Assembly (NCBI GenBank): GCA_965262715.1
Contig: OZ253553.1
Span: 704,001 to 768,000, forward strand
Origin: Bdellovibrionales bacterium
Lineage (GTDB): Bacteria; Bdellovibrionota; Bdellovibrionia; Bdellovibrionales; JAUICD01
DNA length: 64,000 nt
Direction: 5' to 3'
Of this stretch, positions 42,001 through 48,000 are shown piece by piece; within the stretch, counting starts at the first letter, position 1, and every line of letters starts with the position of its first letter. The position numbers are program-made.

Positions 42001-45000
42001 CTGAGTTAGAGACAGCCCGTCAATTACTTTATGATGCTAAATATAATAGAATTAAAGAAGAGATCATGCGACCACTTGATAACTTTTTCGACTTAGTAGA
42101 AACAAGAACAACCGATACTCTAAGTCATTATAGAAATATTAGAAGAATACTAGATGCCTTGTTTATTATTACTCTTTGTCTCCTCTTTATATCTTTCATA
42201 TTTATTTCAAATAAAATTCTAGAAGAAGAAAAAGAGTTATCATAGAGAATACAGTAATTCCCACGTAAGAATCCTTGCGCCATTTCTAACATAAGCTACT
42301 TGTTTACAAGACTTGCTCAAGTTTTTATTATTAGAAGCCATCTCAAAATTATTTCCTGTGCTCACGTTTCTAAAACAGCCTCTTAATTTAAGTATCGAAC
42401 TTATGTTTGCGATATTGATATATTAAGTTTATTGAGCTAGAAATAGGCTTATTTTCAAAAAAATACCTCTCATAAAAATCATACTTTGGATGAATCAAAA
42501 GCACAGTGTAAATTTGTCTTCAAAGAAAATTCCTGAGACTCCTCACAGGTTTGAAGACTTTTATTGCACTGCAAGGTATGGTGAGCCGCCCTGGGCTCGA
42601 ACCAGGGACCCTCTGCTTAAAAGGCAGATGCTCTAACCAGCTGAGCTAGCGGCCCATTTTTTACTTTGATTGTTCATAAATATTTCTTTATGATCTTAAA
42701 CCAAGTAGCTTATAAATAGCATAAATGTTTTTTAGGAAATAACAAGTCACAAGTCAATAATAAGAATGAGAAGCCATCGATATTTTTTAAGGACATCCAA
42801 ATGAAGCAAAAAATAAGAAGAGTTATCGGACTGCATGCTTGTAAAGAAACATTGAAAATTCGACCTAAAAGTGTTGAGCTAGCTTATATCTCTAAGAATT
42901 GGCAATCATCTGATATGTTAAAAGACTTTCACGCTCTCTTAACACAACATAAAATTTCTGTAAGATATAAAAGTCAGAACTTTTTAAGAGGATGGCAAGG
43001 TATCGCCCTCGAGTCCAATCATTGGCCCCTTTGGAATTGGGATATTGTTAAAAATAACCAGCAGATGATCTTAGTGGCTATCGATAGCCTAGAAGACCCT
43101 CAAAATCTTGGTAATATTCTAAGATCTTCTTGGCTCTTTGGGGCTTATGGGGTTTTACTTTGTAAACATCATTGCGTGCACCTGACAGAGTCTGTGCATA
43201 AGATTGCTAGCGGGGCTGTAGAGCATGTTCCTGTAGAAATCGCATCTAATTTGTCAGATCAACTTCAAAAACTAAAGGATCTAGGGTTTTGGGTTTATGG
43301 CCTAGAAACTTATAAAGAAAAAGATACAAAATTATTATGCAATGAGGAATTTCCACAAAAAGTTGTCCTACTCGTAGGAGCAGAAGGTAAAGGTATACGT
43401 CAAAATGTTAAAAAAACATGTGATCAACTTTTAACCATCCCTCAAATCCAAAAAGATCATAGCCTGAACGCCTCTACAAGCCTGGCAATAGCCCTTTACG
43501 AAGTAGATAAAAATCTTATAGTAAAATCATAAAATAACAATATAAACTATTGTAATAATTAATATTTTTATATATCTGGTTAGATTTTGGATTTTTTCCT
43601 AAGTTCTTATTTAAAAAAATAGGTTGATAGCAACTTTTTCTCGCGACTCATTGATACTTAGGCCAATACTTTACCCACTAGAAGCTTGTGTTGTCACAGC
43701 AAGGATTGGAATGATAAGAGCTGTATGATGAGAGTGTTACACACGGTTCTTGAGGATTTCAAAATTCCCCTATTCTACTAGTTTATTTTTCTGGTATAAG
43801 TATAAATTTGTCATTATGCTTTTAGAAGTTTTTCTGGAGGGATATTGGATTTGAAAAGAGCTGTTTTAAAAGGTAAGGAGCGTCCAAGTTTTCTGCTAAG
43901 CCAATGATTGATTCTTATAAGTGAGTTAATATCTACACCTGTTTTATATCCTAGCCTTTCTAAAAAATACACAACAATTTCTGTAGCTACATTGCCTACT
44001 CGATGTTTTGAGTAAGGACATCCTCCAAGACCTCCAAGGCTACAGTCAAAAATAGAAATACCGTAATCTAAACTTTCTTTGATATTTGTAAGTGCCAACC
44101 CTCTGGTGTCATGAAAGTGCATGGCAATTTGATGAGGTGGTATTATCTTTAACAACACTGATAAGAGTTGATTAACTTCTTTTGGCGAGGCAGCTCCAAT
44201 AGTATCTCCAATAGAAATTTCATAACAGCCCATTTCTATGAGCTTTGTTGCTAATTGAACAACTCTATGAGGACCAATATAGCCTTCATAAGGACAATAA
44301 AAGGCTGTGCTGATATAACCTCTTAAACGGCATTTTTTAGGTAACATTTTTGTGATGTCCTTTAAGCGATTTAAACTTTCTGAAACAGAGCAGTTAATGT
44401 TTTTTTGAGTAAAAATTGTGCTTGCTGCTGTAAAAAAAGCAACTTCTTGAATACCCGAGAGAAGAGCTATTTCCATCCCTTTTGTGTTTGGAACAAGAGT
44501 AGAAAAAGAAATGTCCTTAGAAATTTTATTTTTCTTTTGTTGAGCTAAAATTGTTTGCGCTAACTCTAATGACCCTTCCATTTGAGGAACCCACTTTGGA
44601 GATACAAAAGCTCCTATCTCAATTCTTTTAAGGCCGGCAAGGCAAAGTCTTCTGATAAATTTTTCTTTGTTGGTTTGATCTAAAACAATGGATTCGTTTT
44701 GCAGGCCATCCCTGGGTCCCACTTCAACTAAAGTTATCTGTTTTGTCATTTTTTCTCCAAAGGTTTTAATTGTATGAGTATTTGCTCTTTTTCCACTTGT
44801 TGACCGCAAGTGACGTGAATAGACTTAATAACTCCATCTCTTTCTGATTTGATCAGATGTTCCATCTTCATAGCCTCTAAAGCTAAAAGTGTATCTCCTT
44901 TTTTAATAGAATCACCTTCTTTTACCATGACTTGAAGAACTTTTCCGGGTGTGAAAGTTAAAATATGATCTGGTACACTTTGGTGCTCATCTAGGCTGTC

Positions 45001-48000
45001 TTTATCAGCTCCACTGTAAGTCCAAGTAGCTCCTTGAAAATGCATCCAAAGATCTTGAGAGTCAAAACAAATATGTCCTTGCCTGTTTTTTCCATTAATA
45101 AAAAGTGTTAAAGTGTGAACTTGCACTTGAGGGTTTTTCCATTGATGAACATACGAGCTTTCAAAGATAGATGCTTTTTTATGAGCAGTTTTTCTTCTAC
45201 TTATAAACTGTTTTGCATGGTTTTGAAAAATTAACTGTGCATTTGAAAGAGCACCCTCCTCTTTTGGAGTTAATCCTTTTTTGAAATATTTATCAATAAA
45301 ATCAGTAGTGACAGCCCCTTTAAGAAAAATAGAATGTTCTAAAATAGCTTTAAGGTATTCAAAGTTAGTTTTTACACCAAAGACATAAGATTCATTGATA
45401 GTGTTTTTCATCTCTTGAATACAAGATGAGCGGTCTTTAGCCTTAATAATGATTTTTGCAAACATAGGATCATAAAATGAAGAGACTTCGTCACCGTCAT
45501 CTAAGCCATAATCAAAACGTCGATTGACACCACGAGACCATTTTTGAGATATTCGACCTGTACTAGGAAGGCCCTCCTTATAAGGATCTTCCGCATAAAC
45601 ACGGCATTCCATCACATGCCCTTGAGGCTTTAATTGAGATGAAGAAAATGGCAGCTTGTCTCCTTGTGCCACTTGAATTTGCGCTTTTACTAAGTCTACG
45701 TTTAAAAGCATTTCTGTAACAGGATGTTCTACTTGAAGACGTGTGTTCATTTCTAAAAAATAATAGTTTTCACCATCTAATAAAAACTCAACTGTTCCCG
45801 CTCCTACATAATTCACTGCTAAAGCCGCTTTAATAGCATCATCTGCCATTTTGGAATGGTGTTTTTGACATTCTAAAGCAGGAGACTCCTCTATGATTTT
45901 TTGATGCCTGCGTTGGACACTGCAATCACGTTCGAAAAGATGAATGATGTTGCCATGTGTATCTCCAAATATTTGAAACTCAATATGCCTAGCTTTTTCT
46001 ATATATTTTTCTAAAAAAACTTGATCAGAACCAAAAGCGGCTAATGACTCTCTCTTTGCAGAGTTTAATTGTTGAAGAAAGTCTTTTTCAGATCTAGCTA
46101 TCTTGATGCCACGCCCTCCTCCACCAAAGCTTGCTTTGATAAGAAGAGGAAATCCAATTTGCAATGCCATGCTCTTTAACTTTTCATCAGTTTGAACGGG
46201 GTCATGATAACCAGGAATGACAGACACACCTGCTTTCATCATGATTTTTCTAGCTGTTGTTTTATCTCCCATTTTGGCAATAGCTTCATAGGAAGGACCA
46301 ATAAAAGTGATACCAGCATCTTCCACAGCTTTAGCAAATTGAGCATTTTCAGATAAAAAACCAAATCCAGGGTGCAAGGCATCTGCTTGGACCTTAAGAG
46401 CTGCTGATATATTTGCCTCAATATTTAAATAGCTTTCTGAGGAGGGTGCTGGGCCAATACAGATGGTTTCGTCTGCTTGCCTAAAAGCTGCTGATTTTAT
46501 ATCAGCTTCCGAGTGCAGTAAAACCGTTGGGAATTGAAGCGCTTTACATGCCTTCAAAATCCTTAAGGCCACCTCTCCTCTATTAGCAATAGCAAGTTTT
46601 TTAAAGCTCATTGTTTTTCATTGGTTTGATTCCAAGAAGGTTTGCGTTTTTCTAAAAAGGCAGCTAAGCCCTCTTGACCTTCTTGACTGGAACAACATTT
46701 TTTAAAAAGATCAATGACTTCAGCTTCTAAATGAGTAAAATTGAATTTTTCTTTTTCACATTTTCTAATAAGAGATTTTGTATGTCTTACCGCTTGTCTG
46801 CCTACAGAAGAGAGTTTATGGCACTTATCCTGGATATATTGATCTACTTGATCGGGAGTGCCTACAAAATCTAAAAGACCTTTAGAAAATGCCATTTGAG
46901 CATCAAACTTTTCACCTGTAAGCATCAGCTCTAGTGCATGTGGTGGGTTGATCTTTCTACAAACAAAAAGACTGATAACAGCAGGTATAATACCTAACTT
47001 TACTTCACTAAATGCAAAAACAGTGTCCTTTGTTGCTGCCACTATATCACAGGCAGCGGTCAAACCAATACCTCCTCCAATAACATGACCGTGAATATGG
47101 CAAAGTACAGGGTGAGGACAATTATAGATAGTGCTTAAAAGATCATAAAGCACTCTGATATTAGATGTATTTTGAGGTGAATGAGCTGTGTTTTTAATCC
47201 AGGAGATGTCTCCTCCAGCACAAAAGCTTTTACCATTTCCTCTTAAAACAATAGCGGAGATATCAGATTGAAGCTGAGTGTCGGAGAAAACTTGAGTGAG
47301 TTCTTGCATTAACTCTGCATTGAGCGCATTTCTAACCTGTGGCCGGTTTAAGCTAATTGTCAAAATAGATTTTTCTTTTGAATATTCAACAGATGACATA
47401 AGAATCCTTTTGTTGTTTTTTTATGCATTTATACTACTATTAAATATTAAGATATTTCAAGCTCTAACATATTCACTCATTTTGTATTATTCAGGCAGTC
47501 CGGCAACCTGGCAGTCGAGCAATTAAGTTCCCGGCAAGTTATTTGCCGGATTGCGGGTCTTCCGGGGAAAAATATAAGAACTCTCTACTATTGATAATAA
47601 AAGAACTTTTTGTCAAATTTTCCAAACTTGATACATCAGTATTTTAAATCATCATTTTTAGAAATATAAGTTAAGAAAAAAAGCTGATTCTCCGATGTTG
47701 TAAGAAATAATATCCAAAATATAAACCCTCATTAAGGAGAATTAAAATGAGACACTTAATATTGAGTTTATTGGTATTGGGCTTTTCTCAAAATCTGCAA
47801 GCAAAGTTAGGTGTAGATGAGCCTTCTAGCGAAAATAATGAAAGCAATAAAGAGTATTTAGAATGTGCAAATAGGATAGAGGCATCTGGTAAAGTGTATT
47901 TAGAATGTGTAAAAAGTGTAAAAGAAGAACCAGTAAAAAGTCTTTCAGCAGGAGTGGTTTTCAAAGAACCTAGATCAAGGGCCTCAGCCAATAATCAGCA

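What a model noticed while it worked through the whole genome (the two positions that open the first line are those of the whole stretch)
43814..47399. Mevalonate pathway without HMG-CoA synthase: isoprenoid supply appears to hang on leucine catabolism
All isoprenoids here (undecaprenyl phosphate, haem O/A farnesyl tails) must come from the mevalonate route: the MEP pathway is absent, and HMG-CoA reductase (g01294), mevalonate kinase (g01305), diphosphomevalonate decarboxylase (g01191), type-2 IPP isomerase (g01293) and FPP synthase (g01943) are present. But no HMG-CoA synthase exists. The only encoded source of HMG-CoA is leucine breakdown: leucine dehydrogenase (g01290), branched-chain 2-oxoacid dehydrogenase (g00634, g01788), isovaleryl-CoA dehydrogenase (g01189), methylcrotonyl-CoA carboxylase (g00618, g02119), methylglutaconyl-CoA hydratase (g00619), next to HMG-CoA lyase (g00617). 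The same gap holds for the order, so these amino-acid [...]
Evidence so far: pfam.tsv: no HMG_CoA_synt_N/C, DXP_reductoisom, IspD, YgbB, GcpE, LYTB; HMG-CoA_red g01294, MVD-like_N g01191, GHMP kinases g01305, g02173, FMN_dh g01293 (type 2 IPP isomerase by NCBIfam), HMGL-like g00617. Six-frame HMM over 26 Bdellovibrionales: HMG-CoA reductase PF00368 in 25, HMG-CoA synthase PF01154 in 1 (G020), IspH PF02401 in 1 (the same G020). Leucine-pathway genes named by NCBIfam/Swiss-Prot. Paper search 'Bdellovibrio + mevalonate + HMG-CoA': 2 papers, neither on this by title and abstract.
(Added by a program. Inside this text positions count along the whole contig: contig position 704,001 is position 1 of the stretch shown here. 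"Call 12" and the like, gene names such as g00115 and contig names such as C1 are that model's own, and its searches are not shown. The text may have been shortened before it was handed on; [...] marks where a part breaks off. The agent that wrote the report below was given it as the finding of a first reader that could run no searches.)

Follow-up and report, generated by a model that had tools for sequence, protein, structure and literature searches.

The report
Leucine breakdown feeds mevalonate pathway
This predatory-type bacterium and most of its phylum make isoprenoids by the mevalonate route but lack the usual enzyme that makes its starting compound HMG-CoA, and the evidence points to leucine breakdown as the supplier.

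Summary
Window 43814-47399 (- strand) is a tight three-gene operon: methylglutaconyl-CoA hydratase-like crotonase, methylcrotonyl-CoA carboxylase (MCC) alpha, HMG-CoA lyase. The single-contig genome has class II HMG-CoA reductase, type 2 IPP isomerase, mevalonate kinase- and decarboxylase-like genes. I found no HMG-CoA synthase and no IspH, IspG or DXR.

In 201 genomes of the phylum, 131 carry the reductase and none of those carries IspH. One has a clear synthase.

Four independent lines support leucine-derived HMG-CoA:
- An MCC-type cluster is kept in every reductase-bearing family searched.
- MCC beta sits back-to-back with the reductase gene in three families (7 genomes).
- One of those families keeps MCC beta and the hydratase but has no detectable lyase.
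- Published Tn-seq in Bdellovibrio bacteriovorus 109J lists the reductase and the cluster's biotin carboxylase as putative essentials, while the lyase tolerates insertions.

Against: there is no labelling experiment, MCC beta insertions were recovered in that Tn-seq, and MEP-using relatives also keep leucine catabolism.

The leucine-to-HMG-CoA-to-mevalonate route is known in trypanosomatids and myxobacteria, which also have the synthase. A synthase-less, phylum-wide version was not found in the literature searched. Confidence 0.65.

The parts
46608..47399 (-). Crotonase-family enoyl-CoA hydratase, read as 3-methylglutaconyl-CoA hydratase. First gene of the operon.
   Evidence: Pfam ECH_1 184.9 bits. 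It is the only stand-alone crotonase in the genome; the only other phmmer hit is a FadJ-like fusion. It lies between MCC alpha and the lyase, overlapping MCC alpha by 4 nt. Substrate specificity is inferred from context only.
44746..46611 (-). Methylcrotonyl-CoA carboxylase alpha subunit (biotin carboxylase plus biotin carrier domain).
   Evidence: Pfam Biotin_carb_N, CPSase_L_D2, Biotin_carb_C and Biotin_lipoyl. EAMKME biotinylation motif at residues 578-583. Best solved relative is human MCC alpha, 491 bits. The genome holds one other biotin carboxylase, with its own carrier protein.
43814..44749 (-). HMG-CoA lyase. The ORF is open to 44809, but the profile match and the ATG at 44749 suggest the shorter form.
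   Evidence: NF004283 360.7 bits, cut-off 246. Pfam HMGL-like 161.4 bits. It is the only DRE-TIM protein that phmmer finds in the genome.

Best explanation
The window operon (hydratase, MCC alpha, HMG-CoA lyase) is the distal part of leucine catabolism. It works with MCC beta (C1:2.50 Mb), isovaleryl-CoA dehydrogenase (C1:1.41 Mb) and a branched-chain 2-oxoacid dehydrogenase.

Proposed mechanism:
1. Leucine taken from prey protein is converted to isovaleryl-CoA.
2. Isovaleryl-CoA is converted to 3-methylcrotonyl-CoA.
3. MCC carboxylates it to 3-methylglutaconyl-CoA.
4. The hydratase converts that to HMG-CoA.
5. HMG-CoA is a branch point. The lyase burns most of it to acetoacetate and acetyl-CoA. 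Class II HMG-CoA reductase takes a small share to mevalonate and on to IPP for undecaprenyl phosphate, quinone and haem tails.

No HMG-CoA synthase and no MEP pathway were found, so this branch is the only recognisable source of isoprenoid precursors here and in nearly all mevalonate-using members of the phylum.

Shown: gene identities, the absences at the stated thresholds, their distribution, and the gene linkages. Inferred: hydratase specificity, the direction and share of flux, and the dependence itself.
For: 1. ABSENCE OF OTHER SOURCES IN THIS GENOME. No synthase domain at E<=10. A profile of relatives' synthases finds only FabH (18.3 bits) and a thiolase (12.4 bits). Both are ordinary: FabH scores 432.7 bits, one thiolase is of the acetyl-CoA acetyltransferase type and the other is FadI-like beside FadJ. 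No IspH, IspG or DXR.

2. PHYLUM PATTERN (201 genomes, 28 families).
- The reductase is in 131 genomes, which is every genome of 21 families. IspH is in 67 of the 70 genomes of the other 7 families. The two never co-occur.
- A clear synthase is in 1 of 201, and in 3 of 101 in the order sample.
- An MCC beta orthologue (at least 59% identical, E<=1e-170) is in 110 of 110 reductase-bearing genomes outside families f15 and f16, and in 101 of 101 order genomes including 1.6 Mb ones.
- f15 instead has a conserved lyase-hydratase-carboxyltransferase cluster of another carboxyltransferase lineage. The lyase is in 19 of 20 genomes. The cluster layout was seen in 5 fetched genomes, and family-scanned in G102.
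- Three MEP families (f14, f18, f19; 19 genomes) have neither the lyase nor an MCC beta orthologue.

3. LINKAGE. MCC beta and the reductase are adjacent and divergent in 7 genomes of families f26, f30 and f32 (coordinates). In G182 the layout is lyase, MCC alpha, hydratase, MCC beta on one strand, then reductase and a kinase on the other, followed by decarboxylase and prenyl synthase. G205 shows the mirror image. None of 80 MCC beta loci from other phyla had a reductase within 6 kb.

4. LYASE LOST, CARBOXYLASE KEPT. In f26 (3 of 3 genomes) and f16 (1 genome) no lyase is found even at E<=1. They keep the carboxyltransferase and the hydratase, and in f26 these sit beside the reductase.

5. EXPERIMENT IN A NAMED RELATIVE (B. 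bacteriovorus 109J Tn-seq, PMC6561027, supplements read).
- IPP isomerase, reductase, decarboxylase, UPP synthase, octaprenyl-PP synthase, a branched-chain 2-oxoacid dehydrogenase E1, ETF alpha and the liu-cluster biotin carboxylase are all in the 201-gene list of putative essentials.
- The hydratase and isovaleryl-CoA dehydrogenase have no fitness value (ND).
- The lyase tolerates insertions (W 0.40-0.54, small SD).
- Two thiolases tolerate insertions (W about 1.5-1.8).
- 'Hydroxymethylglutaryl' occurs in only two product names of the whole gene table: the lyase and the reductase.

6. PRECEDENT FOR THE CHEMISTRY. Leucine feeds sterols through isovaleryl-CoA dehydrogenase in T. brucei (PMC5993337, passages). 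A myxobacterial sesquiterpene was labelled by dimethylacrylate but not significantly by acetate (PMC7321100, passages).
Against: - No isotope or enzyme data exist for any member of the phylum. Everything rests on gene content, context and one transposon screen.
- In that screen, MCC beta (W 0.69-1.43, SD up to 1.27) and the biotin carrier protein (W 2.5-3.9, SD about as large) do have fitness values, so some insertions were recovered. The hydratase and isovaleryl-CoA dehydrogenase are not in the essential list.
- The MEP-using families f17, f22 and f29 also keep a lyase (29/32, 14/14, 3/4), and f22 keeps MCC beta. Retention of leucine catabolism is therefore not specific to mevalonate users.
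- A divergent GHMP kinase of this genome escaped both Pfam and NCBIfam. Profile searches can thus miss enzymes here.
- f26 has no dedicated MCC alpha. Its second biotin carboxylase lies in a propionyl-CoA carboxylase-type cluster.
- The seven adjacency cases may stem from one ancestral event.
Confidence: 0.65

Rival explanations
1. An unrecognised enzyme makes HMG-CoA from acetyl-CoA and acetoacetyl-CoA. It could be a non-homologous condensing enzyme or a promiscuous thiolase or FabH. Leucine catabolism would then be only an energy pathway that happens to pass through HMG-CoA.
For: - MCC beta insertions were recovered in 109J Tn-seq with fitness near 1.
- A divergent GHMP kinase was invisible to both libraries, so divergent enzymes do exist here.
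- Many ORFs near the mevalonate genes have no family.
- An acetyl-CoA acetyltransferase-type thiolase is present.
Against: - No synthase-like ORF was found by Pfam at E<=10 or by a profile of the phylum's own synthases run without filters.
- No conserved unknown gene accompanies the reductase across the operons inspected.
- This reading does not explain MCC beta sitting back-to-back with the reductase in three families.
- It does not explain retention of MCC beta and the hydratase where the lyase is gone.
- Two of the three 109J thiolases tolerate insertions, though they could back each other up.
Confidence: 0.2
2. HMG-CoA lyase runs backwards, condensing acetoacetate with acetyl-CoA, pulled by the reductase.
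For: - The lyase is nearly universal in reductase-bearing genomes: 98 of 101 in the order.
- Relatives in its superfamily catalyse Claisen condensations (recalled).
Against: - The lyase tolerates insertions in 109J while the reductase does not.
- No lyase is found at E<=1 in f26 (3 genomes) or f16 (1 genome), which keep the reductase.
- By my rough recalled estimate the equilibrium lies far toward cleavage. This is an inference, not a computation.
Confidence: 0.05
3. Isoprenoid precursors or finished lipids are taken from prey, so the source of HMG-CoA does not matter.
For: The group is known for predation and for reusing prey material (Pasternak et al., PMC4646340, passages, notes that mevalonate genes are enriched in predators). 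Typical Gram-negative prey supply polyprenyl lipids (recalled).
Against: - IPP isomerase, reductase, decarboxylase, UPP synthase and octaprenyl-PP synthase have zero insertion sites in 109J grown without prey on peptone-yeast extract.
- The reductase is kept in 131 of 131 genomes of the mevalonate families.
Confidence: 0.05

Closest known systems
Leucine-to-sterol route of trypanosomatids (Trypanosoma brucei procyclics, Leishmania)
   Same: Leucine is degraded through isovaleryl-CoA dehydrogenase, MCC and methylglutaconyl-CoA hydratase to HMG-CoA, which the reductase takes into the mevalonate pathway. Deleting the dehydrogenase abolished leucine incorporation into sterols (PMC5993337, abstract and passages).
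   Different: Trypanosomes also have a thiolase/HMG-CoA synthase bridge from acetyl-CoA (same paper), so leucine is one of several sources. Here no synthase is found. These are also bacteria with a class II reductase.
Myxobacterial leucine degradation branch into isoprenoids (and its reverse, the alternative isovaleryl-CoA pathway)
   Same: In a bacterium, intermediates of leucine breakdown enter mevalonate-dependent isoprenoid synthesis. A sesquiterpene was labelled from dimethylacrylic acid but not significantly from acetate (PMC7321100, passages).
   Different: Myxobacteria possess HMG-CoA synthase (MvaS; recalled, with the alternative pathway named in the abstract of PMC5389471). The two routes coexist there, and the link is usually discussed for making isovaleryl-CoA.
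liu (leucine/isovalerate utilisation) cluster of Pseudomonas aeruginosa and the yngEFG-type cluster of Bacillus subtilis (both recalled)
   Same: The gene set is the same: MCC beta, hydratase, MCC alpha, lyase. Most relatives have this order within about 5 kb (coordinates). Solved P. aeruginosa MCC subunits are close relatives.
   Different: Those organisms use the MEP pathway, and the cluster is purely catabolic. In this genus MCC beta is detached from the operon.
Mevalonate catabolism operon mvaAB of Pseudomonas mevalonii (recalled)
   Same: A class II reductase occurs together with an HMG-CoA lyase. The P. mevalonii reductase structure 1qax scores 312.8 bits to this one.
   Different: There the reductase oxidises mevalonate for growth. 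Here mevalonate kinase-, decarboxylase- and isomerase-type genes are present, the reductase overlaps the isomerase gene, and MEP genes are missing. The reductase must therefore work biosynthetically.

Membership tests
Distal leucine catabolism (MCC alpha/beta, methylglutaconyl-CoA hydratase, HMG-CoA lyase) | HMG-CoA lyase of the DRE-TIM family above the curated cut-off | tested here: met
   NF004283 360.7 bits against a cut-off of 246.
Distal leucine catabolism (MCC alpha/beta, methylglutaconyl-CoA hydratase, HMG-CoA lyase) | Carboxyltransferase subunit of the MCC lineage rather than the PCC lineage | tested here: met
   728 bits to human and 700 bits to P. aeruginosa MCC beta, against about 257 to PCC beta and 429 to geranyl-CoA carboxylase beta.
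Distal leucine catabolism (MCC alpha/beta, methylglutaconyl-CoA hydratase, HMG-CoA lyase) | Alpha subunit with biotin carboxylase and a biotinyl domain carrying the MKM lysine | tested here: met
   Four Pfam domains and the EAMKME motif. MCC versus PCC alpha is not resolved by score alone (491 against 453 bits).
Distal leucine catabolism (MCC alpha/beta, methylglutaconyl-CoA hydratase, HMG-CoA lyase) | Hydratase specific for 3-methylglutaconyl-CoA | tested here: inconclusive
   Crotonase fold is clear. No curated family is reached. The best solved relatives are an unnamed crotonase and isohexenylglutaconyl-CoA hydratase. The assignment rests on operon position and on its being the sole free crotonase.
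Classical bacterial mevalonate pathway | HMG-CoA synthase | tested here: not met
   PF01154 and PF08540 give nothing at E<=10. A profile of relatives' synthases gives at best 18.3 bits, to FabH.
Classical bacterial mevalonate pathway | HMG-CoA reductase | tested here: met
   TIGR00532 342.7 bits against a cut-off of 260. Solved class II enzymes score 285-324 bits.
Classical bacterial mevalonate pathway | Mevalonate kinase, phosphomevalonate kinase and diphosphomevalonate decarboxylase | tested here: inconclusive
   The kinase scores 98 bits (cut-off 163) and the decarboxylase 139 bits (cut-off 171). Pfam MVD-like_N scores 111 bits. The second kinase is recognised only through 26% identity over the full length to the kinase beside the reductase in G135.
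Classical bacterial mevalonate pathway | Type 2 IPP isomerase | tested here: met
   TIGR02151 330.9 bits against a cut-off of 281.
MEP/DOXP pathway | IspH, IspG and DXR | tested here: not met
   No match at E<=1, while the controls match in 10 to 14 of 14 reference genomes. DXS, IspD, IspE and IspF were not searched.

The most novel reading that the evidence does not exclude
All mevalonate-using lineages of this phylum lost, or never had, HMG-CoA synthase. They rewired the last steps of leucine catabolism into the committed entry of isoprenoid synthesis.

Consequences if true:
- Building of cell wall carrier lipid and respiratory quinones depends strictly on leucine obtained from prey or host.
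- In some lineages (f26) the catabolic exit, the lyase, has been discarded. MCC beta, the hydratase and a 2-oxoacid oxidoreductase have been placed beside the reductase and a kinase as one leucine-to-mevalonate module.
- This would be a metabolic tie between growth and prey supply, and a lineage-specific weak point.
Probability: 0.5. Interest if true: 0.8.

Novelty: new variant of a known kind. Interest (0 to 1): 0.7.

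Why it matters
Textbook mevalonate pathways start from three acetyl-CoA through HMG-CoA synthase. A whole bacterial phylum branch running the pathway without that enzyme would change how pathway presence is scored in genomes, because 'incomplete' modules may be complete.

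It would give a concrete reason why amino-acid-fed predators favour the mevalonate route, an enrichment noted but unexplained in PMC4646340. It would link isoprenoid-dependent processes (peptidoglycan carrier lipid, quinones) to prey-derived leucine.

It is directly testable in Bdellovibrio host-independent strains with labelled leucine. It also suggests MCC and the hydratase as control points for growth of predatory bacteria that are being considered as living antibiotics.

Tried and rejected
1. FAMILIES f15 AND f16 looked like a counterexample: reductase present, no synthase, no IspH, no MCC beta orthologue. Inspection showed a conserved lyase-hydratase-carboxyltransferase cluster with a PCC-lineage carboxyltransferase. 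I no longer count it against the reading, but the substrate of that enzyme is untested.

2. LONG REDUCTASE FRAMES (about 780-890 aa in G003, G091, G095 and others) were suspected to be thiolase fusions. The one inspected (G003) is a class-I-like reductase domain with an extension, beside PEP-synthase-like and fatty acyl-AMP ligase genes. It is probably a secondary-metabolite cluster. The others were not inspected.

3. Its best relatives are heptose-phosphate kinases, and it has no real similarity to the kinase in relatives' operons.

4. A 262-aa ORF downstream of the decarboxylase and a 187-aa ORF inside the f15 operon were tested as missing enzymes. Neither has a family, and the 187-aa ORF has no homologue in this genome.

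5. THE GENOME_CONTIGS SCAN with MCC beta was meant to collect more f26/f30/f32 loci. I used them only as a weak background control, since most of those organisms probably lack the reductase altogether.

6. SYNTHASE CONTEXTS in G017, G027 and G220 were examined for an acquired mevalonate cluster. The genes are bona fide (355-380 bits to TIGR01835) but sit among unrelated genes.

7. A DEDICATED MCC ALPHA in f26 was searched for. I found only an AccC-sized gene and a biotin carboxylase in a propionyl-CoA carboxylase/mutase-type cluster.

8. LITERATURE. The following full-text searches gave nothing on the synthase gap by title or abstract:
- Bdellovibrio + mevalonate + HMG-CoA synthase: 0 papers.
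- Bdellovibrio + mevalonate: 35 papers.
- Bdellovibrio + HMG-CoA: 8 papers.
- Bdellovibrio + hydroxymethylglutaryl: 7 papers.
- Bdellovibrionota + mevalonate: 11 papers.
- Two leucine/mevalonate term sets.
Subscription-journal surveys of mevalonate gene distribution are not in the library and may mention it.

9. EARLIER FINDINGS of this scan: one look-up, nothing bearing on this.

Full report
WHAT IS AT THE COORDINATES

Window 43814-47399 holds three ORFs on the - strand that overlap by four bases at each junction.

- The first (46608-47399, 263 aa) is a crotonase-fold enoyl-CoA hydratase (Pfam ECH_1, 184.9 bits). No curated NCBIfam family is reached.
- The second (44746-46611, 621 aa) is a biotin carboxylase fused to a biotinyl domain with an EAMKME motif. 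Its best solved relative is human MCC alpha (491 bits), ahead of PCC alpha (453).
- The third is HMG-CoA lyase (NF004283, 360.7 bits, cut-off 246). The profile match and an ATG at 44749 suggest a start 20 codons inside the listed ORF.
- Flanking genes are unrelated: an RlmB-like methyltransferase and peptide ABC permeases.

Within the whole genome, phmmer finds no other DRE-TIM protein. It finds one other biotin carboxylase, with its own carrier protein, and one other crotonase, a FadJ-like fusion. The operon is therefore the only candidate for these three steps.

The genome is one contig of 2.94 Mb (completeness estimate 92.7%).

- A class II HMG-CoA reductase (TIGR00532, 342.7 bits) overlaps an upstream type 2 IPP isomerase (330.9 bits). 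Ribosomal protein L20 and a Glu/Leu/Phe/Val-dehydrogenase-family gene lie just upstream.
- Pfam finds three GHMP kinases: a mevalonate kinase-like protein (98 bits, below cut-off), a decarboxylase-like protein (139 bits, below cut-off, but Pfam MVD-like_N at 111 bits), and a third that resembles heptose-phosphate kinases.
- MCC beta lies far away at C1:2501311-2502984. It is clearly of the MCC lineage (728 and 700 bits to solved MCC beta, about 257 to PCC beta).
- Two acyl-CoA dehydrogenases lie side by side 1.2 kb from the decarboxylase gene. One is short/branched-chain-like. For the other, the top five solved relatives are all isovaleryl-CoA dehydrogenases.
- An E1-alpha-like gene lies 4 kb beyond the window end.
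- A polyprenyl synthase homologue is present.

THE TWO ABSENCES

HMG-CoA synthase:
- Neither Pfam domain matches at E<=10. The same search rings in 8 and 7 of the 14 control genomes.
- I also built a profile from the three real synthases found in relatives and ran it without filters over all 4874 six-frame ORFs of at least 70 aa. The best hits were FabH (18.3 bits) and a thiolase (12.4 bits).
- That FabH is canonical (432.7 bits). The two thiolases are an acetyl-CoA acetyltransferase type and a FadI-like gene beside FadJ.

MEP pathway:
- IspH, IspG and DXR give nothing at E<=1.
- I did not search DXS, IspD, IspE or IspF.

DISTRIBUTION IN THE ORDER (101 genomes, 13 families, 53 genera, own genome included)

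- Reductase: 99 genomes.
- Synthase: 5 at E<=1e-3, of which 3 are strong, all in one family.
- IspH: 1, a partial frame.
- Lyase: 98.
- MCC beta: 101, with full-length matches 63-77% identical, including 1.6 Mb genomes.

DISTRIBUTION IN THE PHYLUM (201 genomes, 28 families)

- The reductase is in 131 genomes, which is every genome of 21 families.
- IspH is in 67 of the 70 genomes of the other 7 families. There is no overlap.
- A strong synthase match occurs in one genome.
- The synthase-less mevalonate pathway is therefore a trait of the whole mevalonate-using part of the phylum sample.

IS THE LEUCINE BRANCH ALWAYS THERE WHEN IT IS NEEDED?

- An MCC beta orthologue (E<=1e-170, at least 59% identity) is in 110 of 110 reductase-bearing genomes outside families f15 and f16.
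- f15 (20 genomes) and f16 (1) at first looked like counterexamples, with only about 40% identical hits.
- Fetching their lyase loci showed a conserved lyase-hydratase-carboxyltransferase cluster whose carboxyltransferase is of the PCC lineage. f16 has hydratase-carboxyltransferase without a lyase.
- I read this as a second type of MCC cluster, as I recall for Bacillus yngEFG. Its substrate is untested.
- Among MEP users, three families (f14, f18, f19; 19 genomes of 1.2-2.2 Mb) have neither a lyase nor an MCC beta orthologue. Families f17, f22 and f29 keep a lyase.
- So the branch can be lost when MEP is present, and was not seen lost when the reductase is present. Its retention is not exclusive to mevalonate users, and related genomes are not independent samples.

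GENE LINKAGE

In all seven sampled genomes of families f26, f30 and f32, MCC beta and the reductase are neighbours on opposite strands, with start codons a few tens of bases apart (coordinates; ORFs).

- G182: lyase, MCC alpha, hydratase and MCC beta on one strand. Reductase and a GHMP kinase on the other. Decarboxylase and a prenyl synthase follow.
- G205: the mirror image.
- G135 and G149 (f26): kinase and reductase on one side. MCC beta, the hydratase and the two subunits of a 2-oxoacid:acceptor oxidoreductase on the other. That oxidoreductase could make isovaleryl-CoA from 2-oxoisocaproate, but this is an inference.
- Control: none of 80 MCC beta loci from other phyla had a reductase within 6 kb, while about 29 had a lyase. 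This control is weak, because most of those organisms probably have no reductase.

LYASE LOSS

- No lyase is found even at E<=1 in the three f26 genomes (89-93% complete, three genera) or in the f16 genome.
- These genomes keep the carboxyltransferase and the hydratase. Without the lyase, the reductase is the only known consumer of the HMG-CoA they make.
- This also argues against lyase reversal as the general source.
- Weak point: f26 has no dedicated MCC alpha. Its two biotin carboxylases are AccC-sized, or lie in a propionyl-CoA carboxylase/mutase-type cluster with a separate carrier protein. MCC beta there would have to share a partner.
- A fifth genome without a lyase (G073, same order) has its MCC beta near a contig end, so it is not counted.

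PUBLISHED EXPERIMENT

Duncan et al. 2019 (PMC6561027) made a transposon library in a host-independent B. bacteriovorus 109J grown on peptone-yeast extract (main-text passages). I read Data Set S3 in full. Of Data Set S2 I read the searched rows and one part.

Among the 201 putative essentials are:
- type 2 IPP isomerase, the reductase and the decarboxylase;
- UPP synthase and octaprenyl-diphosphate synthase;
- a 3-methyl-2-oxobutanoate dehydrogenase;
- ETF alpha;
- the 'biotin carboxylase' EP01_RS03000, which lies between the hydratase and the carrier protein of the liu-type cluster.

Fitness values in Data Set S2:
- The hydratase (RS03005) and isovaleryl-CoA dehydrogenase (RS15680) have no fitness value (ND).
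- ND occurred in 7 of the 53 rows of the part I read, and five of those are coenzyme A biosynthesis genes.
- The lyase (RS02990) has well-measured fitness of 0.40-0.54.
- Leucine dehydrogenase and two thiolases are dispensable.

Against the reading: MCC beta (RS03010) and the carrier protein (RS02995) do have values, with standard deviations about as large as the means. The hydratase and the dehydrogenase are not in the essential list.

The word 'hydroxymethylglutaryl' occurs only twice in the product column of the whole table, for the lyase and the reductase.

I could not verify it.

THE SECOND GAP

- The kinases that sit beside the reductase in G182 and G135 find one ORF in this genome, C1:1538894-1539805 (303 aa), 2 kb upstream of the mevalonate kinase-like gene.
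- It aligns over its full length at 26% identity (E 3e-14) with conserved glycine/serine-rich kinase motifs.
- Neither Pfam nor NCBIfam reported it at the thresholds I used (E<=0.01 and E<=1e-8), and no solved structure matches it.
- It is the better candidate for the second kinase. It also warns that divergent enzymes can hide in this genome.

HOW IT MOST LIKELY WORKS

1. Prey-derived leucine is oxidised to isovaleryl-CoA. No isopropylmalate synthase-like protein was found, so leucine is probably not made by the cell.
2. Isovaleryl-CoA is dehydrogenated.
3. The product is carboxylated by MCC.
4. It is hydrated to HMG-CoA.
5. The lyase takes the bulk for energy.
6. The reductase takes what isoprenoid synthesis needs.

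I put this at 0.65. The rivals are a hidden synthase at 0.2, and lyase reversal and prey salvage at about 0.05 each.

COMPARISON WITH WHAT IS KNOWN

The chemistry is established in trypanosomatids (PMC5993337, passages) and in myxobacteria (PMC7321100, passages). Both also have the synthase. For trypanosomes this is stated in the paper. For myxobacteria it is recalled.

What differs here:
- the absence of the synthase across 21 families;
- the physical merging of the two pathways in three families;
- loss of the catabolic exit in one family.

My eleven searches of the open-access library found no paper describing this. Subscription-journal surveys could not be checked.

Noticed in passing
G000:C1:1538894-1539805 (outside the window; L003:894-1805): A 303-aa ORF with no Pfam or NCBIfam hit is a divergent GHMP-type kinase. 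It is homologous (26% identity, full length) to the kinase beside the reductase in relatives.
   Followed up: partly
window 24857-27108 and 29424-31743 (- strand): Two similar cassettes lie in tandem, each of three ORFs (about 203-205, 154 and 233-242 aa). The outer ORFs carry the prepilin N-terminal methylation motif. They look like a duplicated pilin-like gene set.
   Followed up: no
window 5943-7565, 10757-11710, 33446-34687, 34961-36598: Four transposase/integrase genes (DDE_Tnp_1 twice, rve, Mutator family) lie within 31 kb. In this genus MCC beta is detached from the liu-type operon, while other genera of the family keep it adjacent.
   Followed up: no
window 37944-39118 (- strand): A Fic/DOC-domain protein (199 aa) lies directly downstream of an HTH_3 protein (190 aa), a toxin-antitoxin-like pair.
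   Followed up: no
window 12135-14531 (- strand): A class I Glu/Gln-tRNA synthetase of 798 aa. The three Pfam domains end near residue 526, leaving about 270 C-terminal residues without a family.
   Followed up: no
L085:8032-15189 (G003:C1:1888032-1895189): An 804-aa protein with a class-I-like (NADPH-type) HMG-CoA reductase domain and a long extension is followed by a PEP-synthase-like gene and a fatty acyl-AMP ligase. It is a second reductase, in what looks like a secondary-metabolite cluster. Similar long frames occur in at least eight other genomes.
   Followed up: partly
L098:5286-8133 (G135) and L099:6873-9729 (G149): In family f26 a two-subunit 2-oxoacid:acceptor oxidoreductase follows MCC beta and the hydratase, in the place where other families have MCC alpha and the lyase.
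   Followed up: no
G000:C1:1405141-1409780 (L112:3141-7780): The short/branched-chain-like and isovaleryl-CoA dehydrogenase-like genes lie 1.2 kb from the convergent diphosphomevalonate decarboxylase-like gene. A 262-aa ORF of no known family lies between them.
   Followed up: partly
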